Shown piece by piece: positions 6,812-48,073 of a stretch of DNA of 53,911 bases. The notes beneath the pieces were generated by a model. It had not been told where the DNA came from and searched no databases. It saw only the letters and a list, made by a program, of their open reading frames with translations. The DNA is from Chloroflexota bacterium (lineage in GTDB: Bacteria; Chloroflexota; Limnocylindria; P2-11E), in the NCBI GenBank assembly GCA_028876375.1, contig JAGWSB010000004.1, positions 1 through 53,911 on the forward strand. Reading direction: 5' to 3'. The position numbers were made by a program, and so were the translations under genes. Within the stretch, counting starts at the first letter, position 1. Each line of letters opens with the position of its first letter.

Positions 6812-8029
6812 GTGAAAGACGGAGGCCTGCGGCAGGCCGCTCTTCTCGGCGCCGTCCTCCTTCTCGTGCTGCTGCCGTCCAACGTGCCGGCGGGCGTCGT
6901 GCCGCTGCTGCAGCAGGAATGGTCGACGAGCGCGGCGCTCATGGGCGCGGTCGTCGGCGCGTACCAGCTCGGCTACGCCGTCGCCGTGCTCGTCGTCCTC
7001 CCGCTCACCGACCGCTTCTCCGCGCGGCGCGTCGTCCTCGCGTCCGTCGTGATCACGCTCGCCGCGAGCCTCGCCTTCGCGCTGCTCGCGCGCGATCCCG
7101 TCACGGCGATCGTCCTGCGCGTCATCGCCGGCGCGGGCCTCGCCGGCGCGTACATGCCCGGCGTGCGCATCGTCGCCGCCGCGGCCGATCCCGCGCGACG
7201 CGGACGCGCGGTCGGCCTCTACGTGTCGGCGTTCTATCTCGGCAGCTCGCTCTCGCTCCTGTTCACCGGCATCCTCCTCGGCCCGGTGGGCTGGCGCGGC
7301 GCGGCGCTCGCGCTCGCGTCCGCGACCGCGCTCGCGCTGGTCGTCACGCTCGCGACGCCGATCGCGACGGAGCGGCCCGCGGGCCGCGCACGCCTCGATC
7401 CGAGCGTCGTCCGCGAGCCGCGCCTGCTCGGCGCCGTCGTCGCTTACGCCGGCCACACCTGGGAGCTGTACGCGGCGCGCGGCTGGCTCGCGGCGTTCTT
7501 CGCCGTCGTGCTCGCCGCGCGCACCGGCTCTCCGCTCGAAGCCTCCGCGGTCGGGAGCCAGTGGGCGGCCGGCATGCTCGCCCTCGGCGTGCTCGGCGTG
7601 TCGCTGGGCGGGCTCGTCTCGGACCGCGCCGGCCGGCACGCGTCCGCGGCCGTCTTCGCGCTCGCGAGCGGCGTCCTCTCGATCGTGCTCGGGACGCTCG
7701 GCGCGGCGCCGTGGCCGGTCGTCGTCGCCGTCGGCTGCCTCCTCGGCCTTCTCATCTCGGCCGACTCAGCGATCTACTCGACGCTGGTGACCGAGACGGT
7801 GCCCGCCGAGCGGCTCGGATCGGCGCAGGCGATCCAGGCCTCCATCGGATTCCTCGCCGCGAGCGCGGCGCCGGCCGCGGCGGGGCTCGCGACGGACGTC
7901 GGGCTCGGCTGGCCGGGCGTGTTCGCGACTGCGGGCGCGGCGAGCATCCTCGCCGCCGTCGTCATGGCCGCTCAGATCCCGGGCAGGTCGAGGCCCTTCC
8001 GGCGCGCGAGGTCGAGCGCCTCCACGTAG
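6812..8029 (+). CDS. MFS transporter
   Basis: Many hydrophobic segments, [10 protein letters not shown] motif A-like, HTWELY; 3' end overlaps hutU. Confidence 0.85.
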
Positions 8030-9621: not shown

Positions 9622-9646
9622 GGCGCCATTGTCGTCCCGCGCCCGG

Positions 9647-11176
9647 CTACTCGGCCGGGACCGACCTCTGCCGCACCGCGGCGGCGAGCACGTCGCGCGC
9701 GATCACGTCCGAGAGCGCGGCGATCTCCGGCGCGAGGGGGCGGTCCTCGTCGAGGGTGGGCGAGCCCTCGCGGATGAGGGCGCGCACCGTCTCGAGCGGC
9801 GCGGACGTCCGCATGCCGAGGAGGTCGAGGCCCTGCGCGGCACAGAGCGCCTCGATGGCGAGGATGTCGCGCACGTTGCGGACGACGGCCGCGAGCTTCT
9901 GCGCGGCGTGGACCCCCATGCTCACGTGGTCCTCCATCCCCGCGGACGTCGGGACCGACTGCATCGACGCGGGCAGCGCGCGCAGGCGATCCTCCGCTAC
10001 GAGGGCGGCGGCGGTGTACTGGGCGACCATGAACCCCGAGCTCGCTCCCGGGCGGCGCGTGAGGAACGGAGGCAGCCCCGAGGTGTGCCCGTTCGTCATG
10101 CGGTCGATGCGCGCTTCGGAGATCTCCCCCAGCTGCCCGACGGCGATGGTCGCGAGGTCGAGCGCGATCGAGACGGGCTGGCCGTGGAAGTTGCCGCCGG
10201 AGAGGACGCGCCCGTCCTCGGGGAAGACGAGCGGATTGTCCGTGACGGAGTCGATCTCGCGCTCGAGGACGCTCCGAACGTAGCCGAGGGCGTCGCGCGT
10301 GGCGCCGTGGACCTGCGGGATGCAGCGGATCGAGTACGGATCCTGGACGCGAGGGTCCCCGGTGCGGTGCGACTCGCGGATGGCGCTGCCCTCGACCAGC
10401 GCGCGCAGCGTCCGCGCGACGCTCTTCTGGCCGGGATGCGGGCGCGCCTCGTGGATCCGGGCGTCCCAGGCCTGATCCGTCGCGCGGAGGGCCTCCGCCG
10501 AGAGCGCCGCGATGATGTCGGCGGCCTCCGCGACGACCTCGGCGTCGTGCAGCGCGAGGCAGCCGATCGCCGTCATCACCTGCGTCCCGTTGATGAGGGC
10601 CAGGCCCTCCTTCGGCCCGAGCTGGATCGGCTTGAGGCCGGCGTGCTTCAGCGCCTCGGCCGCGGGCTTTCGCTTGCCGTCGTGGAACGCCTCGCCCTCG
10701 CCGATGAGGACGAGCGCCATGTGCGCGAGCGGCGCGAGGTCACCCGACGCGCCGACGCTCCCGTACATCGGCATGACCGGATGCACGCCGCGCCCGAGCA
10801 TGTCGACGAGGAGCTCCAGCGTCTCCTTGCGGACGCCCGACCTCCCCGCCGCGAGCGTGTTCGCCCGCAGCAGCATCGTCGCGCGCACGACGTCGACGGG
10901 GAGCGGGTCGCCCACGCCGACGGCGTGGCTGCGCACGAGGTCGCGCTGCAGCGTGCGCAGGTCCGCGGCGGGTATCTTCACCGTCGAGAGGTCGCCGAAG
11001 CCGGTGTTGATGCCGTAGATCGGCTCGTCGCCCCTGGCCAGCTCCTCGACGAGCTTTGCCGCCGCCTGGACCCTACCCTCGGCGCGGCGCTCGATGGCGA
11101 TGGCGACGTTCCCGCGCGCGACGCCGACGATCTCGGCGATCGTCAGATCCTGACCGGTGATGCGGATGGTGGTCAG
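9647..11176 (-). CDS. hutH: Histidine ammonia-lyase; probable CTG start at 11176
   Basis: MIO motif [26 protein letters not shown]. The frame stays open upstream of the tracked GTG through IYGINTGFG to [12 protein letters not shown] with no ATG/GTG/TTG. Confidence 0.93.
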
Positions 11177-11182
11177 GGGAGA

Positions 11183-11728
11183 CTACCGGGGGACTGCGCC
11201 CCCCGAGGACCCCCCGGGGACGCTCGTCCTGTACTCGGCGCTCATCTCCCGGTAGTGCTCCGACGCCGCATGCGTCCACCGCGAATCCTCGGGCCGCACG
11301 TCACGCGCGACACGGGCAGGCACGCCGACGACCATCTTCCGCTCGCCGACCTCCATGCCGGCGGGGAACACCGCGCCGGCGCCGACGAGACTTCCGCTTC
11401 CGACCTTGTTGAACCCGGTGAGGACGGACGCCGTCCCGATGAGGACGTTGTCGCCCACGACGCTCGAATGGACGATCGCGCCGTGTCCGATGGTGCAGTT
11501 CGCACCGATGATGGTGGGCGCGCCGTGATCGGTGTGGATGACGGAGTTGTCCTGGACGTTCGTCCCCGAGCCGATCCGCACGTACGACGTATCCGCGCGG
11601 ACCGTCACCCCGAACCAGATCGACGCGCCCGACGCGATCTCGACGTCGCCGATGATGCTCGCCGTCGGCGCGACCCACGCGTCGTCGGCGACCTTCGGCA
11701 TCTTCCCTTGATACGGATAGAGAGGCAC
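11183..11728 (-). CDS. Gamma carbonic anhydrase-like hexapeptide-repeat protein (YrdA/PaaY family)
   Basis: APTASIIGDVEI, TNVQDNSVIH, TIGHGAIVH, GVPARVAR; GTG at 11728 follows a TACCAT -10. Confidence 0.9.
   Translation of the reverse strand: MPLYPYQGKMPKVADDAWVAPTASIIGDVEIASGASIWFGVTVRADTSYVRIGSGTNVQDNSVIHTDHGAPTIIGANCTIGHGAIVHSSVVGDNVLIGTASVLTGFNKVGSGSLVGAGAVFPAGMEVGERKMVVGVPARVARDVRPEDSRWTHAASEHYREMSAEYRTSVPGGSSGGAVPR
11186..11219. repeat. Short GC-rich palindromic (REP-like) element in the 3' end of the gamma-CA gene
   Basis: ccgggggactgcgccccccgaggaccccccgggg forms hairpins and encodes a low-complexity tail PGGSSGGAVPR. Confidence 0.35.
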
Positions 11729-11744
11729 CGCGAGAATGGTATGG
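11729..11744. promoter_or_regulatory. Bidirectional promoter for two leaderless genes
   Basis: GAGAAT (+) and TACCAT (-) overlap and each lies 7 nt from a GTG start; only 16 bp separate the starts. Confidence 0.6.
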
Positions 11745-12866
<1,122 letters not shown>

Positions 12867-34662: not shown

Positions 34663-35594
34663 GCCACCCCGGCCGGCACTCCTTCGCGCCGCGGCCTCGC
34701 TTTCGCGCTCACGCGCTCCGGCGCGCGAGCGACGAGGACCGCGCAGTGCGCGTTCTCCAGCAGCTCGTCGGTCGTGCTCCCCTGGAGGAAGCCCTCGCCG
34801 CGCAGCGAGCGCCCGCGGGCGCCGATCACGACGAGGTCGCTGCCGCTGCCCGCGGCGACCTCGAGGATCCGCTCCGCGGGACGTCCGCGTTCGAGCTCCA
34901 TGCGCACCTGCACTCCCTCCGGGAGCAGCTTCCCCGCGCGCGACAGGATGTCGAGCGCGTCCTCGCGGTCGCAGCGCTCGACCGTCGCCTGCAGCTGCTC
35001 GGCCGACGCGTCGCCGTGCGCCGTGGGCGTCGCGCGCTCCGGAAGGACGTGGAGCAGCGTGACCTCGAGATGCTTGGGAAGGGGGAGCGCCGCGAGCGTG
35101 CGGACCGCGACGTACGCGTCATCGGATCCGTCCGCCGCGACGAGGATGCGGCGCGGCGCCTCGCGGCGCTCGCGAGCGACGAGCACGGGGATCGGTGAAT
35201 GCCGCGACACCGCTCGCGCGGTGCTCCCGAGCACCAGCGCGGCGATCCTCCCCAGCCCGCGCGAGCCCATGACGATCACGCCGGCGCCCTCGGACCGCGC
35301 CACCTCGATGATGGTCTGGGCGACGGAGCCTTCATCGATGCGCGCCTTCGTCGGCACGCCCTTGGCGCCGACCTTCTCGCGGACCGTGCTCGCGAGCCGG
35401 CGCGCGGCCGCGGTCTCCTCCTCCGCGATCTCCGCGAAGTACATGCCCGTGCCGTCGATGCCGACCCCGGTGTAGCTGTGGACCGGCACCGCGAGGACCG
35501 TGACGTGATCGGAAGCGCGCAGCGGGAGCGCGAGGAGCATGTCGAGGGCGACGTCCGCCGTGGCGGACCCGTCGGTCGCGAACAGGATGCGCAT
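34659..35594 (-). CDS. Tandem-domain universal stress protein
   Basis: MRILFATDGS, MGSRGLG, LGSTA, AHCAVLV; SD TAAGGAGG. Confidence 0.92.
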   Translation of the reverse strand: MRILFATDGSATADVALDMLLALPLRASDHVTVLAVPVHSYTGVGIDGTGMYFAEIAEEETAAARRLASTVREKVGAKGVPTKARIDEGSVAQTIIEVARSEGAGVIVMGSRGLGRIAALVLGSTARAVSRHSPIPVLVARERREAPRRILVAADGSDDAYVAVRTLAALPLPKHLEVTLLHVLPERATPTAHGDASAEQLQATVERCDREDALDILSRAGKLLPEGVQVRMELERGRPAERILEVAAGSGSDLVVIGARGRSLRGEGFLQGSTTDELLENAHCAVLVARAPERVSAKARPRREGVPAGVA

Positions 35595-35606
35595 ATCAGG
35601 GCCTCC

Positions 35607-35774
35607 TTAGCTGGTCGCGGGTGCCGCGGACCTCCGTGGGACGCCCGCTGGTGTCGGCCCATTCCCCCCGCCAACGCACGCGTGAACGACGTTCAAGAGA
35701 CCACCGGCGAGCAGCAGTCCGAAGCCGACGATGTTCGCGCGGTGGATCCGTCTGGCGACGCCCTGCGGCGTCAT
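35607..35774 (-). CDS. Putative small membrane protein (55 aa)
   Basis: MTPQGVARRIHRANIVGFGLLLAGGLLNVVHAC...; ATGA overlap with the upstream sORF; stop overlaps the USP SD. Confidence 0.45.
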   Translation of the reverse strand: MTPQGVARRIHRANIVGFGLLLAGGLLNVVHACVGGGNGPTPAGVPRRSAAPATS

Positions 35775-35905
35775 GCCCGCCGGGAGAAGCGGCTGCCGCT
35801 GGCGCGGAGGAAGAGTCGCGCGGTGAAGCGGCCGATCGCCGCCGCGCCGACGCTCAGCCCCGCCAGGAGGACCACCCAGCCCATGAGGCTCCAATCGAGC
35901 GGCAC
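35771..35905 (-). CDS. Putative small membrane protein (44 aa)
   Basis: MPLDWSLMGWVVLLAGLSVGAAAIGRFTARLFLRASGSRFSRRA; GACCAT -10 lies 6 nt before GTG; one TM plus a basic tail. Confidence 0.55.
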   Translation of the reverse strand: MPLDWSLMGWVVLLAGLSVGAAAIGRFTARLFLRASGSRFSRRA

Positions 35906-35941
35906 GTGGGGATGGTCGGTCGCGGAGGCTCGGAGGAGACA

Positions 35942-36055
35942 GGGCCGAAGGTCCCCCGGGCGCTGGTCGAGAGGGCCCCCGCGGACTGGGGTCGGGTCCC
36001 GCCACTTCGGGCCTCGGGGCTCTGTCGCAGGGGTACTCCGACGCGCGAAAGTCCT
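35942..36055. promoter_or_regulatory. DosR-box-like sites in a divergent promoter
   Basis: Near-perfect gggccgaaggtccc (35942-35955) and cgcgcgaaagtcct (36042-36055). Confidence 0.6.
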
Positions 36056-36116
36056 CCCCGGACGGGCTCACCAGAGGGACCGCCCAGAGCGCAGGATCAC
36101 GAGAGGAGTGATCTCG

Positions 36117-36689
36117 ATGGCACGAGTGACCGTCGTCCAGGAACCCCCCTTCTCCCGCTTCGTCTTCAACGACACGCGCATGGCGCCGGTCTGGCTCCTC
36201 GCCCGCCTCTACGTCGGGTGGGCGTGGCTGGACGCGGGCCTGCACAAGCTCCAGGACCCCGCCTGGACCGTCACCGGGACGGCCCTCAAGGCGTTCTGGA
36301 CCAGCGCGGTGAAGCTGCCGCCCGACGTTCCGAGGGCGGCCATCACGTACGACTGGTACCGCAGCTTCCTTCGGTTCCTGCTCGACGCGGGAACGTACAC
36401 GTGGTTCGCGAAGCTCGTCGCGTTCGGCGAGTTCATGGTCGGCCTCGCGCTGATGATCGGGTTCTTCACCGGCTTCGCGGCGCTCGTCGGCGCGTTCATG
36501 AACATGAACTTCATGCTCGCGGGCAGCTCGAGCACCAACCCCGTGCTGCTCGTGATCGCCGTGCTGATCCTCATGGCCTGGAAGGTCGCGGGGATCATCG
36601 GCGTGGACCGCGTGCTGCTCCCGGCCCTGGGGACGCCCTGGAGGCCGGTGCAGGCTCCGAAGCTGAGGACCGTTCACGCGACAACGTGA
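36117..36689 (+). CDS. DoxX/DoxD (thiosulfate:quinone oxidoreductase-like) membrane protein
   Basis: RLYVGWAWLDAGLHK, GEFMVGLALMIG, MNMNFMLAGSSSTNP; SD GAGGAG. Confidence 0.85.
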   Translation: MARVTVVQEPPFSRFVFNDTRMAPVWLLARLYVGWAWLDAGLHKLQDPAWTVTGTALKAFWTSAVKLPPDVPRAAITYDWYRSFLRFLLDAGTYTWFAKLVAFGEFMVGLALMIGFFTGFAALVGAFMNMNFMLAGSSSTNPVLLVIAVLILMAWKVAGIIGVDRVLLPALGTPWRPVQAPKLRTVHATT

Positions 36690-40365: not shown

Positions 40366-41157
40366 ATGGCGGATCAGGCGAAGTCCACCGGACCACGCGA
40401 AGCATCCCGTCGTCGTCTACTGAGTGCCTTTGTAGCCGGTGGGGTGGGTCTTGCGGCTGTCCCGCTGGTGCCGATCGCCTTCCCGCAAGCGGAAGCCGCG
40501 ACGCCTCCGAAGAAGAAGCGGCAGTGGGCGATGGTCATCGACCTTCGCCGCTGCGACGGCTGCAAGAAGTGCACCGAGGCGTGCCAGACCACGCACGATC
40601 TGCCTCAGACCTTCGAGTGGATCAAGGTCTTCGAGGTCCAGGACAAGCAGGGCGGCTCGTACTTCATGCCGCGTCCGTGCATGCACTGCGAGAACGCGCC
40701 GTGCCTCCGCGTCTGCCCCGTCGCCGCGACTTTCAAGACGGACGAGGGCGTCATCCTCGTCGACCAGAGCCGCTGCATCGGCTGCCGCATGTGCATGGCG
40801 GCATGCCCCTACGGCGCGCGCTACTTCAACTTCGCTGACCCGCCGAAGCCCCCGAGCCCGTTCGCGCAGCCGACGCCCGAGCATCCCGTCCCGCAGATCA
40901 AGGGCACCGTCGGCAAGTGCATGCTGTGCGTCCACAACACCGTCGACGGCAAGCTCCCCGCGTGCGTCAGCGCGTGCGGGATGCAGGCGCTGTGGATCGG
41001 CGACCTCGTCGAGGACGTCGCGACGAACGGGACCGACACCGTCCGCTTGTCGTCGCTCCTCAAGGACAACGACGCCTTCCGCTACAAGGAAGAGCTCGGC
41101 ACGAGCCCGCGCGTCTATTACATCGCCGGCCACGGCCAGGCGCTGCAGGGCGCGTGA
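40366..41157 (+). CDS. Tat-exported 4x[4Fe-4S] electron transfer subunit (NrfC/DsrO/QrcC-like)
   Basis: SRRRLL Tat signal; CDGCKKCTEAC, CMHCENAPCLRVCP, CIGCRMCMAACP, KCMLC...PACVSAC. Confidence 0.92.
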   Translation: MADQAKSTGPREASRRRLLSAFVAGGVGLAAVPLVPIAFPQAEAATPPKKKRQWAMVIDLRRCDGCKKCTEACQTTHDLPQTFEWIKVFEVQDKQGGSYFMPRPCMHCENAPCLRVCPVAATFKTDEGVILVDQSRCIGCRMCMAACPYGARYFNFADPPKPPSPFAQPTPEHPVPQIKGTVGKCMLCVHNTVDGKLPACVSACGMQALWIGDLVEDVATNGTDTVRLSSLLKDNDAFRYKEELGTSPRVYYIAGHGQALQGA

Positions 41158-42524
41158 TGGATCGACGGACGCGCGGCCTCTACATCGAGCGCGCCGTTTG
41201 GCCCATCGGCCGCGGCGACCGCAACTTCTGGATCGCCGTCGCCGTGCTCGGCGCTGTCGTCGCCGCGGGCGTCTACGCCTGGATCTACCAAGTCCAGCGC
41301 GGGCTGTGGGTGACCGGCCTCAACCAGAAGGTCTCGTGGGGCTTCTACATCATCAACTGCGTCTTCTTCATCGGCATCAGCTACGGCGGCGCGATGACGA
41401 GCGCGATCCTCCGGCTGACGAACGCCAAGTGGCGCGCCCCGCTCACGAGGATCGCGGAGGCGACGGCGGTCGCGGCTCTCCTGGTCGGGGCGGTCTACCC
41501 GATCGTCGACCTCGGCCGCCCCGACCGCTTCGTCAACATCATCCGCTACGCCCAGATCGGATCCCCGATCGTGTGGGACGTCACCGCGATCACGACGTAC
41601 ATGATCGCCAGCTTCGTATTTCTCTACCTGCCGCTCATCCCCGACCTGGCCGTCGCGCGTGAGGCGCTCAGCCTGTCGCACCGCCGGGAAGCGAAGCTCC
41701 TCGCGCCCGTCTACCGCTTCCTCTCCCTCGGCTGGCGCGGGCGCCCCGCGCAGGAGCGTGCGCTCGCACGCGGGGTCGGGATCATGGCCGTGCTCATCAT
41801 CCCGCTCGCGGTCTCCGTGCACTCCGTGCTCGCGTGGCTCTTCGCCGTGACCGTCCGCGCCGAGTGGCACAGCACGATCTTCGCGCCGCTCTTCGTCCTC
41901 GGGGCGATGTTCTCGGGGGTCGCGGCCGTGATCGTCGTCATCGCGGCCTTCCGCAAGGTCTACGGCCTGCAGCGGTTCATCGAGGCGAAGCACTTCCGGT
42001 ACCTGTCGTATCTGCTCATCGCCCTCGGCGCCGCCTACATCTACTTCATGGTCAGCGAGTACATCACCGACGGGTACGTCTTCGAGGAGTCGACGACGCC
42101 GGTCATGGAAGCGCTCTTCACCGGCCCGTTCGCCATCGCGTTCTGGGCCTTCAGCATCGGCGGGCTGCTGCTCCCCATCGTCATCGCCGCTCTGCCGGGC
42201 CGCTTCCCGATCGCCCGCGCCGTCGGAGCGTCGGGCCTGGTCATCGCCGGGATGTGGCTGAAGCGCTTCCTCATCGTCGTGCCCGGCATGGCCGAGCCGA
42301 TCATGCCGTGGGACTGGGGCCGCTACTCACCCTCGTGGGTGGAGGTCACGATCACGCTCGGATCGGCGGCGGCGATCCCGCTCATGCTCATCCTCTTCTT
42401 CCGCTTCTTCCCGGTCATGTCGGTCCACGAGCTCGACGAGGTCGAGGGCCGCTACGAGCCGGCGCACGCGCCCCTCGCTCCCGGATACGCACCGCTGTAC
42501 GCGGGTGGAGGCGGAGATGACTAG
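41157..42524 (+). CDS. NrfD/PsrC-family quinol-interacting membrane subunit (DsrP/QrcD/ActC-like)
   Basis: WGFYIINCVFFIGIS, RIAEA, DLGRPDR, SPIVWD, SVHSV, W.STIFAP.F, YSPSWVE. Confidence 0.92.
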   Translation: MDRRTRGLYIERAVWPIGRGDRNFWIAVAVLGAVVAAGVYAWIYQVQRGLWVTGLNQKVSWGFYIINCVFFIGISYGGAMTSAILRLTNAKWRAPLTRIAEATAVAALLVGAVYPIVDLGRPDRFVNIIRYAQIGSPIVWDVTAITTYMIASFVFLYLPLIPDLAVAREALSLSHRREAKLLAPVYRFLSLGWRGRPAQERALARGVGIMAVLIIPLAVSVHSVLAWLFAVTVRAEWHSTIFAPLFVLGAMFSGVAAVIVVIAAFRKVYGLQRFIEAKHFRYLSYLLIALGAAYIYFMVSEYITDGYVFEESTTPVMEALFTGPFAIAFWAFSIGGLLLPIVIAALPGRFPIARAVGASGLVIAGMWLKRFLIVVPGMAEPIMPWDWGRYSPSWVEVTITLGSAAAIPLMLILFFRFFPVMSVHELDEVEGRYEPAHAPLAPGYAPLYAGGGGDD

Positions 42525-43203
42525 GGGCCTGCGCGTCCTCATCGCGGTACTCGCCCTCGTGGCCGCGACGGTGGTCCTCCAGCTCGACCTCCGGGGGCTG
42601 CTCCCAGGGCAAGTGCGCCTCGAGGCACCCAACACCATGCTCATGTCACCGCCGTCGAGCGGTCAGGGCGCGCCCGGTGGCGTGAGCGCTCAGCGTCCGG
42701 CCGCCGCGGCGGCGCCGAACGCCGCGCGCGTGCAGCTCCGGACGAGCGCGGCGGCCAGCGCGCCCGACGGGTACGTGCTGGCGGCGAGCGTCGCTACACC
42801 GGACGGGCGCCCCGCCGCGGGAGCGACCGTGACCTTCTACGAGGTGGTCGACCTCCTCGGCTCCCGCGAGATGCTCATCGACTCGGCGACGAGCGATGGA
42901 CGAGGGAACGCGTCCGTGGTGTACCTCCCCGCGCGCGCCGGCAGCCACGAGATCGTCGCGCGCTCGACCGGGATCGCCAAGGCGGCGTCGGGCGAGGCCC
43001 GTTCGACCCTCGAGGCGACCGTCACCGCCAAGGCGTATGCGCCAGAGACGCCCTCGATCTCGGCGTTCTACAACGCGGTGCCCTACGGGGTCGGTCTGGT
43101 CGTCCTCGCGGTCTGGCTCCTCATCGCGTTCGCGCTCCTCGGCACGGCTCGCGGCGTCGTTCGCGGCGCACGCAGAGAAGAAGAGAAGGGGGTCATCGCA
43201 TGA
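42517..43203 (+). CDS. Hypothetical membrane-anchored Ig-like domain protein
   Basis: N- and C-terminal TM helices flanking a beta-rich domain (SDGRGNASV, GSHEIVAR). Confidence 0.75.
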   Translation: MTRGLRVLIAVLALVAATVVLQLDLRGLLPGQVRLEAPNTMLMSPPSSGQGAPGGVSAQRPAAAAAPNAARVQLRTSAAASAPDGYVLAASVATPDGRPAAGATVTFYEVVDLLGSREMLIDSATSDGRGNASVVYLPARAGSHEIVARSTGIAKAASGEARSTLEATVTAKAYAPETPSISAFYNAVPYGVGLVVLAVWLLIAFALLGTARGVVRGARREEEKGVIA

Positions 43204-43820
43204 CCAAGCTGGTCCTCCGCGTCCTCGCGTCCGGCGTCGCGCTCGTCCTGGTCGCGGCGTCCTGCGGTGCATCGACCGGCGAAGGCGCACCCGCGGCACC
43301 CGCGGCGAGCGCAGCCCCGGCGACGCAGGCGCAGGCTGCGACCGCCGCGGCACCCGCCCAGCCCCAGTTCCTCGTCGTGATGGGCGACACGATCCGCGGG
43401 AACCTCGGCCTCAACAAGACCGAGATACTCACGACCGCACCCGGCATCCACTGCACCCAGCAGAACCGCTTCCCGCAGGGGGGCCGCATCGTCTGGCGAA
43501 TGAAGGTCATGGACCCTGCGACGGGCAAGTACATGGACAACAAGCAGATCGCGTCGTTCACGATCACCTACCCCGACGGTAAGACCGACAAGCTCGCGTA
43601 CGGCGGACACGGCGGGACCAAGGAGAAGCCGGCCGACATGCTCTGGGCCGTTGGCTACACGGTCCCGAACGACTACCCGACCGGGCTCTTCCCGGTGAAG
43701 ATCGTCGCGACGGATCTCGAGGGACGCACCGGCACCTTCGACCAGTTCAAGGTCGACATCGCGCAGCTCACGATCGTCCCGAAGGGCATGGACTACCCCG
43801 AGAGCCACGAAGCGAAGTAG
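43200..43820 (+). CDS. Hypothetical lipoprotein, beta-sandwich
   Basis: Lipobox VAASC, Ala/Pro linker, HCTQQNRF..IVWRMKV..YGGH..DYPTG; ATGA coupling. Confidence 0.82.
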   Translation: MTKLVLRVLASGVALVLVAASCGASTGEGAPAAPAASAAPATQAQAATAAAPAQPQFLVVMGDTIRGNLGLNKTEILTTAPGIHCTQQNRFPQGGRIVWRMKVMDPATGKYMDNKQIASFTITYPDGKTDKLAYGGHGGTKEKPADMLWAVGYTVPNDYPTGLFPVKIVATDLEGRTGTFDQFKVDIAQLTIVPKGMDYPESHEAK

Positions 43821-43845
43821 GCGAGCGGCCACGCGTTGAGGAGCA

Positions 43846-43879
43846 GGGGGCGTCGTGGTCAGGGGACCGCGACGCCCCC
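43846..43879 (+). terminator. Strong intergenic hairpin (terminator or mRNA stabiliser)
   Basis: 15-bp stem gggggcgtcgtggtc/gaccgcgacgccccc with a 4-nt loop; no U-tract. Confidence 0.5.
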
Positions 43880-43898
43880 ATGCGAAAGGAATGCATCG

Positions 43899-45404
43899 AT
43901 GCGACTGACAAGGATCCTTGCGCTCAACGCGCTCGTCGGAGCGGCGCTGGTGGGCGCGGCCTGCGGCCAGTCCGGACCGAGCGCCTCGCGGTCACCCGCG
44001 ACGGCGCAGCCGTCCAAGGCCGCCGGCCCGGCGACGGCGGCGCCCGGCGCCGCGGCGTCCCAGCAGGCCATGGACGTCACCGGCAAGTTCACGCTCCAGC
44101 CCGCGCACGGCCCGTGGGACACCAAGGTGACCGCGACCGCCGTGGGGCTCAAGCCGGCGACCGCGTACGACCTCGTGTGGACCGGCGCCAAGGTGCAGTG
44201 GAAGCTCTCGGATGACCGGAGCAAGTACCTCGGACGCGACTACACGACGACGAAGCAGGTGCTGCGGACGATCACGACCGATGCGGCCGGCTCCTTCGTC
44301 GCCACGTTCCCCGTCCCGCAGGGCTTCGGCTATGGGCACGACGTCCAGGTGGTCGACAAGGAGAACGTGATCCGGAACAAGAGCCTCTTCGACGTCGACA
44401 TGGTGACGACCATCACTCCGACCAGCGGACCGGTCGGCACGCCGATCACCGTCGAGGTCAAGGGCATCGGCTACCAGTCGTACCAGAACAGCTTCCAGCT
44501 CGACTACGACAACGCGTACACGGGATGGATCTCGTCCGTCACGACGGACGGCTACGCGAAGCTCGTCATCCCCGCGACCGGCGGGGTGGGCGCGCACTAC
44601 ATCACGATCGGGCACAGCGAGTTCGGCGCGCCGTATCTCAACCCGCAGCAGCAGCCCGTCGTCGCGTCGCGCCCCTTCCCGCACATCGCGTTCACCATCA
44701 CTCCCGGCGACGGCGTCGTCCCGCCTCCGGCGGCGCAGCAGGGCTTGCCGCAGATGGCCGCGAGGCCGGTGGACAAGGGCATCTGGACGTCACCCGCGGG
44801 CGCGACGGTCGGCACGCCCGCGACGCTCGAGGCGAAGGCGCTGCCCGCCGGCAGCGACGTGGAGATCCTCTGGACGACGCAGGTCGGGAACCGCTCGGTG
44901 ACGGGATTCGAGGAGCGCACGAGCACGCTCGGCAAGACGCGCACCGACGCGAACGGCGCCTTCAGCTGGTCCTTCGCGGTCCCCGACGACCTCGGCGGGT
45001 ACCACACCGTCAGCGCGAAGATCGGCGATGCCGTCGTCGCGAAGACGCAGCTCTACATCCTCGCGAGCGCACTTCCGCTCAACGTCGACCGCGGTCCATC
45101 AGGCACGACGACGACGGTGCATCTCAAGGGTGTCGGCTGGACGGAGACCGAGCAGATCTACCACCTCGTGTACGACAACGCGTTCGCGGGATACACCTGC
45201 GCGTTCCAGAGCAAGGGCGACATCACGGTGAACCTCACCGTGTCCGGCGCTCCGGGGTGGCACTTCATCGACATGTACCCGGGGATCTTCCAGGGCACCG
45301 AGACGCGGCCCGCCAACTACAAGATGCCGCAGCTCACCGCGCTCGACGACCACCCCGGTGAGAAGCTTCCGGTCTTCCGCTTCGCCTTCTTCGTGACGCA
45401 ATGA
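43899..45404 (+). CDS. Hypothetical lipoprotein with four Ig-like modules (ABAB internal repeat)
   Basis: Lipobox VGAAC; repeated GPxxT module starts, TDAxGxF...H and YDNA.....G.H segments. Confidence 0.85.
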   Translation: MRLTRILALNALVGAALVGAACGQSGPSASRSPATAQPSKAAGPATAAPGAAASQQAMDVTGKFTLQPAHGPWDTKVTATAVGLKPATAYDLVWTGAKVQWKLSDDRSKYLGRDYTTTKQVLRTITTDAAGSFVATFPVPQGFGYGHDVQVVDKENVIRNKSLFDVDMVTTITPTSGPVGTPITVEVKGIGYQSYQNSFQLDYDNAYTGWISSVTTDGYAKLVIPATGGVGAHYITIGHSEFGAPYLNPQQQPVVASRPFPHIAFTITPGDGVVPPPAAQQGLPQMAARPVDKGIWTSPAGATVGTPATLEAKALPAGSDVEILWTTQVGNRSVTGFEERTSTLGKTRTDANGAFSWSFAVPDDLGGYHTVSAKIGDAVVAKTQLYILASALPLNVDRGPSGTTTTVHLKGVGWTETEQIYHLVYDNAFAGYTCAFQSKGDITVNLTVSGAPGWHFIDMYPGIFQGTETRPANYKMPQLTALDDHPGEKLPVFRFAFFVTQ

Positions 45405-45410
45405 AAAGGA

Positions 45411-45445
45411 GCCGGTCCGCGCTCGAGCGAGGGGCGCGGATCGGC
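45411..45445 (+). terminator. Hairpin after the operon end
   Basis: gccggtccgcgc/gcgcggatcggc stem just after the stop codon. Confidence 0.4.
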
Positions 45446-45576
45446 ACCACCCTTTCGCGTGGGACCGCTCCGCCGATGTGCCCGATCGCAGGGGCCGTAT
45501 GCAGGATGCCCTCGGGCCTGATAGCGCTACCGAGCACGCCGACCGCCGCGTACCGTCGGTCGCCGGAGGAATAGAG

Positions 45577-46221
45577 GTGGCAGTACACGTTCCGGCGCTT
45601 CCGCGTCCCGACGTCTGGCACCGGCGCTTCGGCCCGACGCTGGCGCTCCTCCTCGTGCTCGTTCCCTTCGCCGCCATCCTCACGGTGGCCGCGCTCTCGG
45701 CGGCGCCCGCGGACGAGACCGACGTCGCGGTCACCCTCAACGACACCGCCGCGCTCGTCGACTCCCATGCCGAGGCGATGCTCACCGTGGGGCAGCGCAT
45801 CACCGCCGCGGCGCAGGCGTCGAGCGCTTCCGACCGCCTCTCGTGGATCGCCTACGGGCAGCACATGGTCTCGGACGGCAAGGACCTGCAGGGCCTGGCT
45901 TCGCGCATGCGAGACGACGCCGTCGTCGCCGCGGAGGACCCGCTGCACAGCGGACGCAACGTCGCCGTCAGCGCGCTGCAAGCGCGCTGGGAGCAGCTGA
46001 AGGCCGACGGCCAGACGACGGCGACGCACGGTCGCGTCATGCAATCGATCACTCAGGACATGGCGCCCGCCATCTCGAGCGGCATCGTCAGCGCCGCGGA
46101 CGCGAAGAAGCTCCAGGACGCATCGACCGGGATGGTCGACGCGGGCGAGCGCATCGTGAGCGCGGCGAACGTCCTCCTCGCGTCGACGGATCAGATGCAG
46201 CGCTGGATGGGCAACCCCTAG
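45577..46221 (+). CDS. Hypothetical membrane-anchored helical protein with His/Met motifs
   Basis: SD GGAGG, N-terminal TM, all-alpha character, SHAEAM / GQHM / THGRVM. Confidence 0.75.
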   Translation: MAVHVPALPRPDVWHRRFGPTLALLLVLVPFAAILTVAALSAAPADETDVAVTLNDTAALVDSHAEAMLTVGQRITAAAQASSASDRLSWIAYGQHMVSDGKDLQGLASRMRDDAVVAAEDPLHSGRNVAVSALQARWEQLKADGQTTATHGRVMQSITQDMAPAISSGIVSAADAKKLQDASTGMVDAGERIVSAANVLLASTDQMQRWMGNP

Positions 46222-46352
46222 AGCATCCCCAGCGCCGCGGCATCACTCCGCGAACGAGCTGACGAGGCGTTTGCCTCGCCCGGCCGACCGACGGCGGGCC
46301 CGGCGTGTCCCGCCACGTCCCGAACGTAGGAGGGCAGCCCGCGGCGCCACAG

Positions 46353-46405
46353 AGCCCGAACGACCCCGGGTAGGGGGCGGGACGGCCCTGGGGGACCGAC
46401 GATCC
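46353..46405. promoter_or_regulatory. Three DosR-box-like sites upstream of the PCYCGC gene
   Basis: agcccgaacgaccc, gggcgggacggccc, gggaccgacgatcc. Confidence 0.5.
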
Positions 46406-46424
46406 GAGCGCGGACTATCCGCCC

Positions 46425-46892
46425 GTGCGCCGCCGCGCTTTCCTCTTCCTCGGGGCGAGCTCCCTCTCCACGGCCTGCATCCGCGCGTTGCGCACCCCCA
46501 CCGCATGGCAGTCGCAGTCGGCGCCGCCGGCGTCGAAGATGGCCGCCAACCCCAGCGCCGGGATGTGGCCGGACGCGCTGGGGGCGACGCCGGCGGCGAC
46601 GCAGGAGGCGTACAAGTGGGCCGCCGTGAACCGGGCCACTCTCCGCTACATCCCCTGCTACTGCGGCTGCGCGGGTATCGGCCACAAGGACAACTTCGAC
46701 TGCTACGTCAGCGAGATCCGCGACGGCGGCTGGCTGGTGCTCTCCGACCACGCCCTGGGCTGACGCACATGCGTGGACATCACGCGTGACGTGATGACGA
46801 GCCTCCCGACGCAGAGCCTCAAGGACATCCGAGCCGCCATCGATGCCAAGTACTCCGGCGTCGGGCGCGGGACGCCCACCATCCTCCCTTAG
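46425..46892 (+). CDS. PCYCGC-motif lipoprotein, predicted selenoprotein (UGA 46761-46763 = Sec, UxxC)
   Basis: RRR..STAC signal, YIPCYCGC...H..N.DCY. After TGA the frame continues RTCVDI...SLKDIRAAIDAKY..TP, matching the family C-terminus. Confidence 0.85.
46778..46796 (+). promoter_or_regulatory. Candidate bacterial SECIS hairpin
   Basis: catcacg-cgtga-cgtgatg stem-loop beginning 15 nt after the UGA, with G/GU in the apical loop. Confidence 0.6.
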
Positions 46893-46911
46893 GAAGGCGC
46901 TCACTAAAGGT

Positions 46912-46961
46912 GTCCCAAAAGGTCCGGGCCGGAAGGCCCATAGGGTTGCGCCGTAGGTCCC
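46912..46961. promoter_or_regulatory. DosR-box-like sites upstream of the regulator-bcr operon
   Basis: gtcccaaaaggtcc, gggccggaaggccc (46926-46939), gcgccgtaggtccc. Confidence 0.6.
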
Positions 46962-46999
46962 TGTTCGCCGCCAAGCGGCGCCGACACTGTTCGGACAAG

Positions 47000-48073
47000 A
47001 TGGCCGCGCAGCACGACGGTGGACCGGTCCTGGTCGCTGAGGACGATCTCGAGCTCCTCGGCAAGCTCCGCGAGGCGCTACGCGCCGAAGACCTTCTCGT
47101 CGTCGCCTCCCGCAGCGTGCGCGCCGCGGTCGAGGCCGGCGCGTTCCACCGCCCCGCCGTCGTCGTCGTCGACCTCGGCATGGACGGCGGCCGCGGCTGG
47201 GAGCTGCTCCACGCCATGGGCAGCCGCCCCGGCACCGCGGTGCTCGCGCTCGACCGGCGCGGCGACCAGCTGGTGCGGCGTGGCGCGTTCTCCGCGGGTG
47301 CCGCCGACGTCGCCGGGCCACCGCTCGATGCGGCCGAGATCGCGGCGCGCGCGCGGTCGCTGTACCGCCGCGAACGCGGCGACGGCGACCCGGGTCCGGT
47401 GCTCCGACACCGCGACCTCGTGCTCGACGTTCCGCTCCACGAGGTGCGCGTCGGCGGTCGGCCGACCACGCTCACGCCGCAGCAGTTCGCCATCCTCCGC
47501 GCGCTCCTCGAGGCCCGCGGGGCAACGCTGCACCGCTCCCAGCTGCTCGCGCGCATCGCGGCCGTCGACGACGAGCCGCCCTCGGAGCGCGCGGTCGACC
47601 TCCACGTCTCGCGTCTGCGCCGCCGCCTCGGAGTGGGCAAGGACCACCACCGCTACATCGAGGCGGTGTACGGCATCGGCTACCGCTTGGCCGCGACGGA
47701 TGCGCCTGCCGCGCTCCCGTCCGACGTCGCGAACAGCGTTCTCGACGCGGTGACCGAAGGCGTCCTGGTGGTCGATCCGAGCATGCGCATCCGGGCCGCC
47801 AATCGCGCCGCGATGCGCACGCTCGAGCGCGAGGATCTGGTCGGCAGGCCGTGCGAAGAGGTCATGGGCTGCCGCACGCCGGAGGGGAACACGATCACCG
47901 GTCCGACGTGTCTCGGACGCGCCGTCCTCGCCGGAGGCGGAGCGATCCCGCGCGTGCCGATGTGCGTGCGATCGAACGGCTCCTTCATCGACGTCGACCT
48001 CTCGCACACCGCCGTGCACGTCGACGGCGGCAACACCCTGTTGGCCATCGAGGTCCGGCACAAGCCCGACTGA
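47000..48073 (+). CDS. Hybrid regulator: atypical receiver + OmpR-type winged HTH + Cys-rich PAS
   Basis: VLVAEDD...VVDLGM; ERAVDLHVSRLRRRL, YGIGYRL; LDAVTEGVLVVD..ANRAA..GRPCEEVMGC. Confidence 0.85.
   Translation: MAAQHDGGPVLVAEDDLELLGKLREALRAEDLLVVASRSVRAAVEAGAFHRPAVVVVDLGMDGGRGWELLHAMGSRPGTAVLALDRRGDQLVRRGAFSAGAADVAGPPLDAAEIAARARSLYRRERGDGDPGPVLRHRDLVLDVPLHEVRVGGRPTTLTPQQFAILRALLEARGATLHRSQLLARIAAVDDEPPSERAVDLHVSRLRRRLGVGKDHHRYIEAVYGIGYRLAATDAPAALPSDVANSVLDAVTEGVLVVDPSMRIRAANRAAMRTLEREDLVGRPCEEVMGCRTPEGNTITGPTCLGRAVLAGGGAIPRVPMCVRSNGSFIDVDLSHTAVHVDGGNTLLAIEVRHKPD

What the first reader, a model, noticed from the sequence alone, without database searches (positions are those of the whole stretch)
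46425..46892. Hidden selenoprotein: PCYCGC lipoprotein with UxxC and a SECIS-like hairpin
Seen: the ORF track stops at TGA 46761, but the frame continues 42 codons (DHALG-U-RTCVDITRDVM...SLKDIRAAIDAKYSGVGRGTPTILP) to TAG 46892. A 7-bp hairpin with a G-containing loop follows the UGA. Established: PCYCGC proteins have H-x3-CxxC at this position and end with IR..ID.KY; Sec variants of CYCxC-type proteins have been predicted; function is unknown. Inference: a Tat-like exported selenolipoprotein under DosR-like control, between the NrfCD module and the bcr operon.
Basis: partly seen in the sequence, partly recalled or inferred. Interest (0 to 1): 0.75.

Follow-up and report, generated by a model that had tools for sequence, protein, structure and literature searches.

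The report
Selenocysteine-containing PCYCGC lipoprotein gene
The stop codon that seems to end this small exported-protein gene is really a selenocysteine codon, so this is a mis-annotated member of an already catalogued selenoprotein family; its neighbours in related genomes suggest it helps mature copper- and haem-containing respiratory proteins.

Summary
The ORF 46425-46763 ends at TGA 46761-63, and the frame runs 42 more codons to TAG 46890-92.

- **Cys/Sec pair:** the TGA aligns with an invariant Cys, the first Cys of H-x3-CxxC. 104 of 104 database homologs that reach it have Cys; 16 more are cut exactly there.
- **SECIS:** a 17-nt hairpin (AUCACG/CGUGA/CGUGAU) starts 15 nt after the TGA. 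It is kept in 29 of 29 Sec-form genes from 12 families of the phylum, with compensatory changes. 35 Cys forms do not keep it.
- **Machinery:** the genome holds tRNA-Sec, selA, selB and a Sec-containing selD. TGA is otherwise an ordinary stop.
- **Assembly:** contigs from three studies carry the same TGA.

This is not a new kind. PF13798 "CYCXC/OS_HP4, UxxC" is already listed as a selenoprotein family. This Chloroflexota lipoprotein clade scores below NCBI's model cut-off, and RefSeq truncates the Thermomicrobium roseum ortholog at the TGA.

Function is inferred from neighbours only: CcdA/TlpA/CcmH/CcsA, CuA cupredoxins, multicopper oxidase and NosZ. They suggest an outward-facing selenol/thiol redox or Cu(I)-handling protein. 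DosR-like control was not shown.

The parts
46425..46892 (+). Complete selenoprotein gene, 155 codons: GTG start, Sec codon 113, TAG stop. PF13798 PCYCGC family.
   Evidence: The Pfam PF13798 match (82.4 bits, cut-off 25) spans residues 44-155 and profile positions 39-153 of 153, so it runs through the TGA to the end of the profile.
46425..46478 (+). Signal peptide with a twin-arginine-like n-region (M-RRRAFLF) and a lipobox ending at Cys18 (LSTA-C).
   Evidence: Read from the sequence. C18 is at least 90% conserved among 121 sequences. RR plus lipobox occurs in 23 of 26 Sec forms (crude regex; no predictor run).
46653..46670 (+). PCYCGC motif (P77 C78 Y79 C80 G81 C82).
   Evidence: Invariant in 120 of 120 homologs.
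46761..46763 (+). UGA read as selenocysteine (U113). It is the first residue of the UxxC motif (U113-R-T-C116, 46761-46772), four residues after the invariant H109.
   Evidence: It aligns with Cys in 104 of 104 full-length homologs. TGA stands at the same column in 28 of 28 Sec-form genes. It is unchanged in contigs of 4 runs from 3 studies. In the AF2 model it sits directly before helix 114-126.
46778..46796 (+). SECIS hairpin. The stem is 46779-84 with 46790-95, plus C46778-G46796. The loop CGUGA is 46785-89. There are 21 nt between the UGA and the loop. It lies inside codons 119-124 (I-T-R-D-V-M).
   Evidence: 165 of 168 cells paired, and 3 of 6 pairs carry compensatory changes. Synonymous divergence drops to 0.098 in these codons against about 0.6 elsewhere. 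It meets the bSECIS constraints quoted.
46890..46892 (+). True stop codon (TAG).
   Evidence: Relatives end at the same place (...TPxP).
46910..48073 (+). Context: an OmpR-type response regulator with a C-terminal PAS domain. It starts 18 nt after the TAG and is probably co-transcribed.
   Evidence: Pfam Response_reg, Trans_reg_C and PAS. The homologous gene follows the PCYCGC gene in two same-genus relatives (L024, L029). No terminator lies between them.
40366..46221 (+). Context: NrfC-like 4Fe-4S protein (40366-41157), NrfD (40917-42524) and four exported or unknown proteins (42505-43203, 43200-43820, 43836-45404, 45478-46221), all on the same strand upstream.
   Evidence: Pfam; no family found for the four unknowns. 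The NrfCD plus three-unknown block lies next to the PCYCGC gene in 4 of 21 loci (window, L054, L055, L056).

Best explanation
**What is shown.** The gene at 46425-46892 encodes a 155-residue selenoprotein of the PCYCGC family (Pfam PF13798). UGA 46761-63 is decoded as selenocysteine by the genome's own SelA, SelB, SelD and tRNA-Sec system. Decoding is directed by a compact 17-19-nt SECIS hairpin that starts 15 nt after the UGA and is embedded in the codons for I-T-R-D-V-M.

Sec replaces the first Cys of the family's only CxxC motif (H-x3-U-x2-C), which sits at the N-terminal cap of a helix.

**What is inferred.**
- From motifs: the protein is exported by a twin-arginine-type lipoprotein signal and anchored on the outer face of the membrane.
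- From gene neighbourhoods (my odds about 0.4-0.45): its U/CxxC pair acts there as a selenol/thiol-disulfide redox centre, possibly also handling Cu(I). It would work within or beside the CcdA-to-TlpA/ResA reducing pathway that keeps the cysteine ligands of apo-cytochromes c and apo-cuproproteins (CuA cupredoxins, NosZ, multicopper oxidase) ready for cofactor insertion.
- The four other invariant Cys (C78, C80, C82, C93) and two His probably hold a structural or redox metal.
For: **Sec decoding**
1. The Pfam match runs through the TGA to the end of the profile.
2. 104 of 104 full-length homologs have Cys at the UGA column. 16 of 120 gene calls stop exactly one residue before it.
3. The TGA recurs in 16 of 27 matches among 61 relatives and in 16 of 49 matches among 401 genomes of the phylum, spread over 12 families.
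4. The hairpin was counted on 29 Sec forms: 98.2% of cells pair, 3 of 6 pairs carry compensatory changes (A-U to G-C twice, G-C to C-G), and 0 of 500 shuffles reach this. The loop is CGUGA in 25 of 29, CGGGA in 2 and UGGAU in 1, always with G at position 2. On 35 Cys forms pairing is 67.6%, no better than shuffles.
5. Synonymous divergence is 0.098 in the hairpin codons. It is 0.61 upstream and 0.62 downstream, and the downstream pN/pS (0.67) resembles the upstream value (0.60).
6. The hairpin meets all four published bSECIS constraints: loop 5 nt, stem 6-7 bp, G in loop position 2, spacing 21 nt, MFE -7.7.
7. The genome has tRNA-Sec (75.5 bits; anticodon tca), selA (524 bits), selB (345 bits) and selD (337 bits, itself with Sec at CAG-U-GAK).
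8. TGA is a normal stop for 9 of 14 neighbouring genes.
9. Contigs from 4 runs in 3 studies show no difference at the TGA.
10. Four other Sec-form carriers all have tRNA-Sec and selB.

**Function**
- G305: CcdA > PCYCGC(U) > TlpA-like > CcsA > multihaem cytochrome c.
- G391: PCYCGC(U) > TlpA-like > CcsA > multihaem cytochrome c.
- G251: CcdA > TlpA-like > CcmH > PCYCGC(U) > cupredoxin/Fer4_5 > COX2-cytochrome c.
- G001 (same genus): PCYCGC(U) > NosZ > NosD.
- G037: PCYCGC(U) > P-type ATPase.
- Genus g3 Cys forms: a multicopper oxidase ends 2-3 nt before the PCYCGC start.
- At least 17 Cys-form loci: PCYCGC > 172-aa CuA-type cupredoxin > NapH-like Fer4_5 protein.
- On an Exiguobacterium plasmid the gene sits inside a copper/metal island.
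- In the AF2 model (pLDDT 84.4) U113 directly precedes helix 114-126.
Against: **Sec decoding**
- No experimental evidence of selenium incorporation exists, and no RNA run was found.
- The single-sequence fold is not more stable than shuffles (z = 0.36).
- In this one sequence a competing 8-bp hairpin dominates the centroid. It is not conserved (71.4% paired, 412 of 500 shuffles as high).

**Function**
- The window's own genome (89.8% complete) shows none of the informative partners beside the gene.
- No NosZ and no PF07732 multicopper oxidase were found anywhere in it.
- Its local context, NrfCD plus unknown exported proteins and an OmpR-PAS regulator, says little.
- Many loci are close kin, so neighbourhood counts overstate independent support.
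- Only 148 of 330 Cys-locus ORFs were scanned against Pfam.
- No solved fold matches. Foldseek found nothing at E <= 0.001. The best VIA Z was 4.4, with CcmH at Z 3.6, within noise.
- Redox catalysis and metal binding cannot be told apart from sequence.
- The Priestia and Thermomicrobium plasmid contexts show no metal or redox genes.
Confidence: 0.85

Rival explanations
1. Nonsense pseudogene, or a genuinely short protein. Translation stops at TGA 46761 and gives a 112-residue lipoprotein that lacks the CxxC motif and the last two helices. The downstream open frame would be a remnant.
For: Gene callers make this call: 16 of 120 database homologs end there. RefSeq annotates the Thermomicrobium roseum ortholog this way. 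TGA is the commonest ordinary stop nearby.
Against: The same TGA is kept in 28 of 28 aligned Sec-form genes from 12 families. The frame beyond it stays open and evolves like the upstream domain (downstream pN/pS 0.67, upstream 0.60). The Pfam profile continues to its last position. A pseudogene would not keep a covarying hairpin with suppressed synonymous change. All carriers tested have Sec machinery.
Confidence: 0.03
2. Sequencing or assembly error: the true codon is TGC or TGT (Cys).
For: The window comes from a metagenome-type assembly of 134 contigs. Only contigs, not raw reads, could be laid.
Against: Contigs of 4 runs from 3 studies cover 46761-63 with no difference. They do differ at three other places, so they are not copies of one assembly. 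The TGA recurs in 28 other genomes, including a finished plasmid record, NC_011961.1.
Confidence: 0.01
3. The UGA is read through, but not (or not only) as selenocysteine. Examples are near-cognate Trp or Cys insertion, or Cys-tRNA-Sec when selenium is scarce.
For: No selenium-incorporation data exist. Insertion of Cys at Sec codons by the Sec machinery under selenium limitation is known from other systems; this is recalled, not checked here.
Against: The hairpin fits the SelB-type bSECIS model. It co-occurs strictly with TGA and is lost in Cys forms. The complete Sec pathway is present, including a Sec-containing SelD. There is no genome-wide TGA reassignment.
Confidence: 0.04
4. Functional rival: the protein is chiefly a metallochaperone or metal buffer rather than a redox catalyst. 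Cu(I) is the most likely metal. Sec/Cys113, Cys116 and His109 would serve as ligands that hand copper to CuA cupredoxins, NosZ or multicopper oxidases.
For: The commonest neighbours are copper proteins. A CuA-type cupredoxin lies in 20 of 61 loci and a multicopper oxidase in 11 of 61. NosZ-NosD follow the gene in a same-genus relative. SCO1/SenC, CDF and P-type ATPase genes are also nearby. The gene lies in a copper island on pEYLC1.1. UxxC also occurs in catalogued metal-binding selenoproteins (review table).
Against: Three unrelated Sec-form loci place the gene inside cytochrome c maturation and thiol-reduction clusters that have no copper gene directly adjacent. No copper enzyme of these kinds was found in the window's own genome. 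No known copper-chaperone fold matched.
Confidence: 0.3
5. Functional rival: the neighbourhood signal is coincidental, and the protein serves an unrelated extracytoplasmic role. One example is iron uptake, as suggested by a neighbouring Fe3+ binding protein in Parageobacillus. Another is a role linked to the NrfCD-type module in this window.
For: The PCYCGC lipoprotein of P. thermoglucosidasius lies next to an Fe3+ binding protein (PMC13068155, passage read). In this window and 3 relatives the gene follows an NrfCD block with unknown exported proteins. Two plasmid contexts are uninformative.
Against: Copper, haem and thiol-redox partners recur across at least five unrelated contexts. That is more than expected for genes each present a few times per genome; this is my estimate, not a formal test.
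Confidence: 0.2

Closest known systems
CYCXC family (seleno)protein / 'hypothetical protein OS_HP4' (NCBIfam NF041379; listed under PF13798 with motif UxxC and one Sec in the 2026 selenoproteome review, PMC13188914)
   Same: It has the same Pfam family, the same C-Y-C-x-C motif and the same kind of Sec site. The only CxxC in the domain is UxxC, and NF041379 aligns across it (residues 58-143 to model positions 13-89). The function of both is unknown.
   Different: It scores 45 bits against a cut-off of 90. 0 of 401 genomes of this phylum reach the cut-off (scores 38-84). These are longer Tat-type lipoproteins. I saw only the review tables. OS_HP4 is not named in the main text of either Zhang & Gladyshev paper I searched, and supplements are closed, so I could not compare sequences or taxa.
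'PCYCGC motif-containing (lipo)protein' as annotated in RefSeq. Examples are WP_012642643.1 of Thermomicrobium roseum DSM 5159 (NC_011961.1) and the Cys forms on Priestia, Bacillus and Exiguobacterium plasmids.
   Same: Same family and lipoprotein architecture. The T. roseum gene has the same TGA, the same 15-nt spacer and the identical hairpin CAUCACG-CGUGA-CGUGAUG.
   Different: The RefSeq T. roseum CDS ends at the TGA (573004-573321), so its Sec and C-terminal 45 residues are not annotated. The Bacillota proteins are Cys forms.
E. coli fdhF-type bacterial SECIS and the bSECISearch consensus model
   Same: It is a stem-loop directly downstream of the UGA inside the coding region, with an apical loop carrying G(U) in its first two positions. 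Spacing (21 nt), loop (5 nt), stem (6-7 bp) and energy (-7.7 kcal/mol) all lie within the model's limits.
   Different: It is very short and almost invariant in sequence across a whole phylum. It has no bulged U (recalled feature of fdhF). It is built from a stretch (I-T-x-D-V-M) that is already about two-thirds self-complementary in Cys forms.
Extracytoplasmic thiol-reduction components of cytochrome c and CuA maturation: CcdA, TlpA/ResA/CcmG and CcmH
   Same: It is membrane-anchored and outward-facing, with a CxxC at a helix N-terminus. It is encoded between or beside CcdA, TlpA-like, CcmH and CcsA genes in three Sec-form loci. This is what it may work like.
   Different: There is no sequence or significant fold similarity. 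CcmH (2hl7) scores only Z 3.6, within noise. It has four extra invariant Cys. Membership is not claimed.

Membership tests
Bacterial selenoprotein gene (SelB/SECIS-dependent UGA decoding) | In-frame UGA aligned with Cys in homologs (Cys/Sec pair) | tested here: met
   104 of 104 full-length homologs have Cys at the column; 16 of 120 are cut there. Cys forms among relatives align C with U.
Bacterial selenoprotein gene (SelB/SECIS-dependent UGA decoding) | bSECIS element: 3-9 nt loop, 4-16 bp stem, G in the first two loop positions, 16-37 nt from UGA to loop, MFE <= -7.5 kcal/mol (constraints quoted from PMC13188914, Fig. 2 legend) | tested here: met
   The loop is CGUGA (5 nt, G at position 2 followed by U), the stem 6-7 bp, the spacing 21 nt and the 19-mer -7.7 kcal/mol. 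The 19-mer alone reaches -7.5 in 17 of 29 Sec forms, and the 48 nt from the UGA in 29 of 29. bSECISearch itself was not run.
Bacterial selenoprotein gene (SelB/SECIS-dependent UGA decoding) | TGA-containing orthologs in other organisms, with the element conserved | tested here: met
   16 of 27 matches in relatives and 16 of 49 in the phylum sample. The hairpin is kept with compensatory changes in 29 of 29.
Bacterial selenoprotein gene (SelB/SECIS-dependent UGA decoding) | Sec machinery in the same genome (tRNA-Sec, SelA, SelB, SelD) | tested here: met
   All four score over their curated cut-offs.
Bacterial selenoprotein gene (SelB/SECIS-dependent UGA decoding) | Selenium shown in the protein | not testable with these tools
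   This needs 75Se labelling or mass spectrometry. No RNA or proteome data were available.
Pfam PF13798 (PCYCGC) | Score over the gathering threshold, with the PCYCGC motif | tested here: met
   82.4 bits against a cut-off of 25; the motif is at residues 77-82.
NCBIfam NF041379, CYCXC family (seleno)protein (equivalog) | Score over the curated cut-off of 90 bits | tested here: not met
   45 bits. The T. roseum ortholog scores 55 bits. 0 of 401 phylum genomes exceed the cut-off. It is therefore a relative of this equivalog, not a member.
Tat-exported bacterial lipoprotein | Twin-arginine motif in the n-region, a hydrophobic core, and a lipobox with invariant Cys | tested here: inconclusive
   The motifs are visible (RRRAFLF...LSTAC). 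C18 is at least 90% conserved. RR plus lipobox occurs in 23 of 26 Sec forms. No TAT_signal family matched at E <= 1 and no dedicated predictor was available.
CcmH / thioredoxin-like thiol-disulfide oxidoreductases | Shared fold or sequence family | tested here: inconclusive
   CcmH 2hl7_A gave Z 3.6 over 70 residues, among unrelated helical hits of similar Z. Foldseek found nothing at E <= 0.001. The PDB profile search had a best E of 0.13.

The most novel reading that the evidence does not exclude
PCYCGC (seleno)lipoproteins may be a so-far unrecognised component of extracytoplasmic metalloprotein maturation. They would be a new, non-thioredoxin fold whose helix-capping U/CxxC receives electrons from the CcdA-TlpA pathway. 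With them it would reduce the Cys ligands of apo-CuA cupredoxins, NosZ, multicopper oxidases and apocytochromes c, or load them with Cu(I). The Sec forms would be higher-reactivity versions, exported already folded by the Tat pathway. That would assign a function to a widespread domain of unknown function. It would also add a selenoprotein to cytochrome and copper-centre biogenesis.
Probability: 0.35. Interest if true: 0.6.

Novelty: new member of a known kind. Interest (0 to 1): 0.4.

Why it matters
For annotation, one third of PF13798 genes in the phylum sample (16 of 49 matches) are Sec forms. Gene callers cut them at the UGA, and even the RefSeq record of a cultured type strain (T. roseum) does so. 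NCBI's selenoprotein-aware model does not reach them. A subfamily model plus the near-invariant 17-nt SECIS would fix many records.

For biology, the family has no known function. The recurrent placement next to CcdA/TlpA/CcmH/CcsA genes and copper enzymes gives a concrete hypothesis, testable in cultivable, non-pathogenic hosts.

The Sec-versus-Cys contrast over one short coding palindrome is also a clean natural example of how a SECIS can arise from existing codons.

Tried and rejected
- **Single-sequence folding** gave no signal (z = 0.36). It favoured a competing 8-bp hairpin (46768-75 with 46781-88) that is not conserved.
- **Fold and structure searches** gave nothing usable. Foldseek on PDB found nothing at E <= 0.001. 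VIA wide had a best Z of 4.4, a designed Zn dimer, with MerR/CueR and CcmH at Z 3.4-3.7. The PDB profile search had a best E of 0.13.
A natural Cys-form homolog gave no usable hit.
- **Expression:** no RNA holder was listed among 10 runs.
- **Promoter and terminator scan** of 46100-47100 found no promoter-like site. It found one terminator-like match inside the start of the gene, at the level shuffles give.
- **Copper partners in the window's own genome:** NosZ (protein query) and PF07732 were not found in the 89.8%-complete genome. A multicopper-oxidase protein query also found nothing.
- **My GC-position gene-calling heuristic** mis-called known genes. I replaced it with stop-to-stop ORFs filtered by codon-position GC, so the neighbour tallies are lower bounds and include spurious ORFs.
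- **Origin of the name OS_HP4:** I had recalled the GOS paper. The review cites its ref. 60, Zhang & Gladyshev 2007. Neither that paper's main text nor the GOS paper's names OS_HP4, and supplements are closed.
- **Literature:** searches for 'PCYCGC' (2 papers, neither about selenium) and 'Thermomicrobium' plus 'selenoprotein' (2 papers, titles and abstracts unrelated) found no description of this clade.
- **Complex prediction** was not used, because the window has no candidate partner.
Full report
**1. The observation**

A GTG at 46425 opens a frame that meets TGA at 46761-46763 after 112 codons. The frame then continues for 42 codons to TAG 46890-46892.

Read with TGA as U, the product is 155 residues. 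It begins M-RRRAFLFLGASSLSTA-C18, carries P77-C-Y-C-G-C82, C93 and H109, then U113-R-T-C116, and ends ...IRAAIDAKYSGVGRGTPTILP.

Pfam PF13798 (PCYCGC) matches at 82.4 bits (cut-off 25). The match covers residues 44-155 and profile positions 39-153 of 153. The family domain therefore runs straight through the TGA to its own end.

**2. Is the UGA a Sec codon?**

(a) *Cys/Sec pair.* I aligned 120 database homologs. Of these, 104 reach the column of U113, and all 104 have Cys there and Cys at +3. The other 16, which are the closest relatives, end exactly one residue before it. That is what a gene caller produces at an in-frame TGA.

(b) *Recurrence.* A six-frame search of 61 related genomes found 27 matches in 24 genomes. 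Sixteen have one in-frame TGA, ten have none and one has a TAG. Translations show U aligned with C (DHALG-U-RTC against PHATG-C-GVC). In 401 genomes sampled across the phylum, PF13798 matched 49 times in 45 genomes. Sixteen matches have one TGA, spread over 12 families; one has a TAA, one weak match a TAG, and 31 have none.

(c) *Machinery.* The window's genome (2.6 Mb, 134 contigs, 89.8% complete) has all four components:
- tRNA-Sec at 75.5 bits (cut-off 47), and ARAGORN calls a tca anticodon;
- selA at 524 bits and selB at 345 bits, side by side;
- selD at 337 bits, with its own in-frame TGA at the canonical CAG-U-GAK site.

Four other Sec-form carriers that I tested all have tRNA-Sec and selB over cut-off. 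That agrees, but I did not check it.

(d) *No recoding of TGA in general.* Nine of 14 neighbouring genes end in TGA.

(e) *Not an assembly error.* Contigs of four runs from three studies cover the codon without change. They differ from the window at 46496, 46633 and 46889. These are contigs, not raw reads.

**3. The SECIS**

Fifteen nucleotides after the UGA lies AUCACG-CGUGA-CGUGAU (46779-46795). In this gene C46778-G46796 extends the stem to 7 bp.

On 29 Sec-form genes the six pairs form in 165 of 168 cells (98.2%). The 29 are the window's own gene, 13 relatives, 14 from the wider phylum and NC_011961.1. I left out G036 as unpublished, and the partial second copy G026:C339, which I did not fetch.

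Three of the six pairs carry compensatory changes: A-U to G-C at two positions and G-C to C-G at one. No shuffle of 500 reaches the observed pairing or covariation, and sliding the partner by 1-3 columns destroys the pairing. The loop always has G at its second position.

The same columns in 35 Cys-form genes pair in 67.6% of cells, no better than shuffles (181 of 500), and the loop varies.

Across 28 Sec forms the proportion of synonymous differences is:
- 0.61 upstream of the UGA;
- 0.56 in the five codons after it;
- 0.098 in the six hairpin codons;
- 0.62 downstream.

The downstream non-synonymous to synonymous ratio (0.67) is like the upstream one (0.60). These p-distances are near saturation, so the ratios are only comparative.

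The element meets the four constraints of the published bacterial SECIS model as quoted in the 2026 review (Fig. 2 legend). Here the loop is 5 nt, the stem 6-7 bp, G is in the first two loop positions, the spacing is 21 nt and the energy -7.7 kcal/mol.

Two cautions apply. The fold of this one sequence is not more stable than shuffles. A competing 8-bp pairing seen in its centroid is not conserved.

**4. What is already known**

NCBIfam has a model called 'CYCXC family (seleno)protein' (NF041379, OS_HP4). The window's protein hits it at 45 bits, under the cut-off of 90.

[quoted passage not shown] A 2022 review lists OS_HP4 with UxxC.

The domain has only one CxxC, so this is the same Sec site.

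What is not covered is this clade. No genome of 401 in the phylum reaches the NF041379 cut-off (scores 38-84).

The RefSeq record of Thermomicrobium roseum DSM 5159 (NC_011961.1) annotates WP_012642643.1 only up to the TGA. The frame continues (...TFG-U-GICIDITRDVMRL...) with the identical spacer and hairpin.

Handle G214, whose match has the same coordinates as that record, has tRNA-Sec and selB.

I found no paper describing these Chloroflexota forms. Supplementary lists that might contain them are closed.

**5. What it may do**

The family has no assigned function. The only paper discussing a member calls it a lipoprotein of unknown function next to an Fe3+ binding protein.

AlphaFold2 gives a confident compact model: pLDDT 84.4, pTM 0.73, with residues 40-145 mostly above 95. 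In it U113 directly precedes helix 114-126. No solved structure matches above noise.

I therefore used gene neighbourhoods in 61 loci: the window, 20 relatives and 40 from the phylum.

Sec-form loci:
- G305: CcdA > gene > TlpA-like thioredoxin > CcsA > 870-aa multihaem cytochrome c.
- G391: gene > TlpA-like > CcsA > multihaem cytochrome c.
- G251: CcdA > TlpA-like > CcmH > gene > cupredoxin/Fer4_5 > COX2-cytochrome c fusion.
- G001 (same genus as the window): gene > NosZ > NosD.
- G037: gene > P-type ATPase.

Cys-form loci:
- In genus g3 a two-domain multicopper oxidase ends 2-3 nt before the gene's start.
- At least 17 loci, mostly of one family, have gene > 172-aa CuA-type cupredoxin > 445-aa NapH-like Fer4_5 membrane protein.

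Pfam tallies of ORFs within 3.5 kb:
- Sec loci (148 of 149 ORFs, 26 loci): cytochrome c 4-5, AhpC-TSA/Redoxin 4-5, DsbD 3, cation efflux 3, SCO1 2, CcsA 2, multicopper oxidase 2.
- The first 16 Cys loci (148 of 330 ORFs; the rest not scanned): COX2 8, multicopper oxidase 5-6, cytochrome c 6, Fer4_5 6.

On an Exiguobacterium plasmid the Cys form sits among CopD, DsbA, a P-type ATPase, a copper-binding four-helix protein and a multicopper oxidase.

Many of these loci are kin, so the independent cases number perhaps five to seven.

Against the idea, the window's own locus has none of these partners. Its genome showed no NosZ or multicopper oxidase, and two plasmid contexts are uninformative.

My reading, at about 0.4-0.45: this is an outward-facing, membrane-anchored selenol/thiol redox protein, perhaps also handling Cu(I). 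It would work with the CcdA-TlpA pathway in the maturation of haem c and copper centres. A pure copper-chaperone role is the main rival.

**6. Side claims**

'bcr' is only one possible reading of those families.

A GAF-HisKA_3 kinase and a NarL-type regulator lie 6-9 kb upstream. Similar pairs occur within 7 kb in 11-12 of 21 related loci. Nothing shows that they control this gene.

The nearest regulator is the OmpR-PAS gene 18 nt downstream. It is conserved there in two same-genus relatives.

**7. Verdict**

This is a real, mis-called selenoprotein gene (about 0.93). It is a new member, and arguably a new subfamily, of a known selenoprotein family. It comes with a well-supported SECIS and a first functional lead for the family.

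It is useful for annotation and offers a testable hypothesis, but it would not surprise a specialist in kind.

Noticed in passing
G000:C28:88193-89119 (locus L019), minus strand: The genome's selD has an in-frame TGA at the canonical active-site position (…STCAG-U-GAKLGP…). It is followed by a different, GC-rich hairpin (GGCGCAG-GUC-CUGCGCC) about 26 nt downstream. SelD is therefore itself a selenoprotein here, and this organism's SECIS elements are not uniform.
   Followed up: partly
L063 (NC_011961.1, Thermomicrobium roseum DSM 5159 megaplasmid) 5911-6369: The RefSeq CDS WP_012642643.1 stops at the Sec codon. The true gene continues for about 45 more codons to a second TGA. A cultured type strain thus carries an unannotated selenoprotein.
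   Followed up: yes
L080-L096, L099 (Cys-form loci of the phylum); e.g. L081:5016-7156: A conserved three-gene set: PCYCGC lipoprotein, a 172-aa CuA-type cupredoxin (matching CoxB and the NosZ C-terminus) and a 445-aa NapH/MauN-like Fer4_5 membrane protein. In L101 and L103-L105 the Fer4_5 gene lies directly upstream instead. The set looks like an undescribed copper or electron-transfer module.
   Followed up: partly
window 40366-46221: An NrfC-like ferredoxin and NrfD are followed by four exported or unknown proteins (232, 206, 522 and 247 aa) with no Pfam or NCBIfam family. The NrfCD plus three-unknown block is conserved next to the PCYCGC gene in three other genomes (L054, L055, L056). This may be a quinol-linked complex with an unknown catalytic subunit.
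   Followed up: partly
L043 (G001, same genus) 7567-12280: A nos cluster (NosZ with propeller plus CuA domain, then NosD) starts about 150 nt after the Sec-form PCYCGC gene. No NosZ was found in the window's own genome.
   Followed up: partly
N-termini of 59 PCYCGC genes: All 23 Sec forms that have a lipobox also have an RR (Tat-like) n-region. The large group of Cys forms from family f11 has K-rich Sec-type lipoprotein signals. This may be lineage rather than function: Cys forms of the window's own family also have RR. It was scored only with a crude pattern.
   Followed up: partly
alignment A5, columns 25-41 (Cys forms): The codons for I-T-x-D-V-M are already about two-thirds self-complementary in Cys forms. 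The SECIS may therefore have arisen with few changes from an existing coding palindrome.
   Followed up: partly
L057 (G010:C6:166008-166364) and G100:C1:3091455-3091817: Two family members carry an in-frame TAG or TAA instead of TGA. The G010 copy breaks off early. These are probable pseudogenes or mis-starts, not Sec forms.
   Followed up: no
L052:5751-6386, L047:7540-8166 and 8 other loci: A conserved membrane protein of about 200 aa, with no Pfam or NCBIfam match, lies just downstream of the PCYCGC gene in 10 of 61 loci. To my eye it resembles DoxX-type proteins; that is recall, not a test. The window has a DoxX-domain ORF at 35199-36689.
   Followed up: partly
window 46300-47000 in runs X2, X4, X6, X8: Near-identical copies of this locus occur in mine-drainage and soil metagenome assemblies from three studies. 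They carry three single-base differences: 46496 and 46889 are synonymous, and 46633 gives R70Q.
   Followed up: yes
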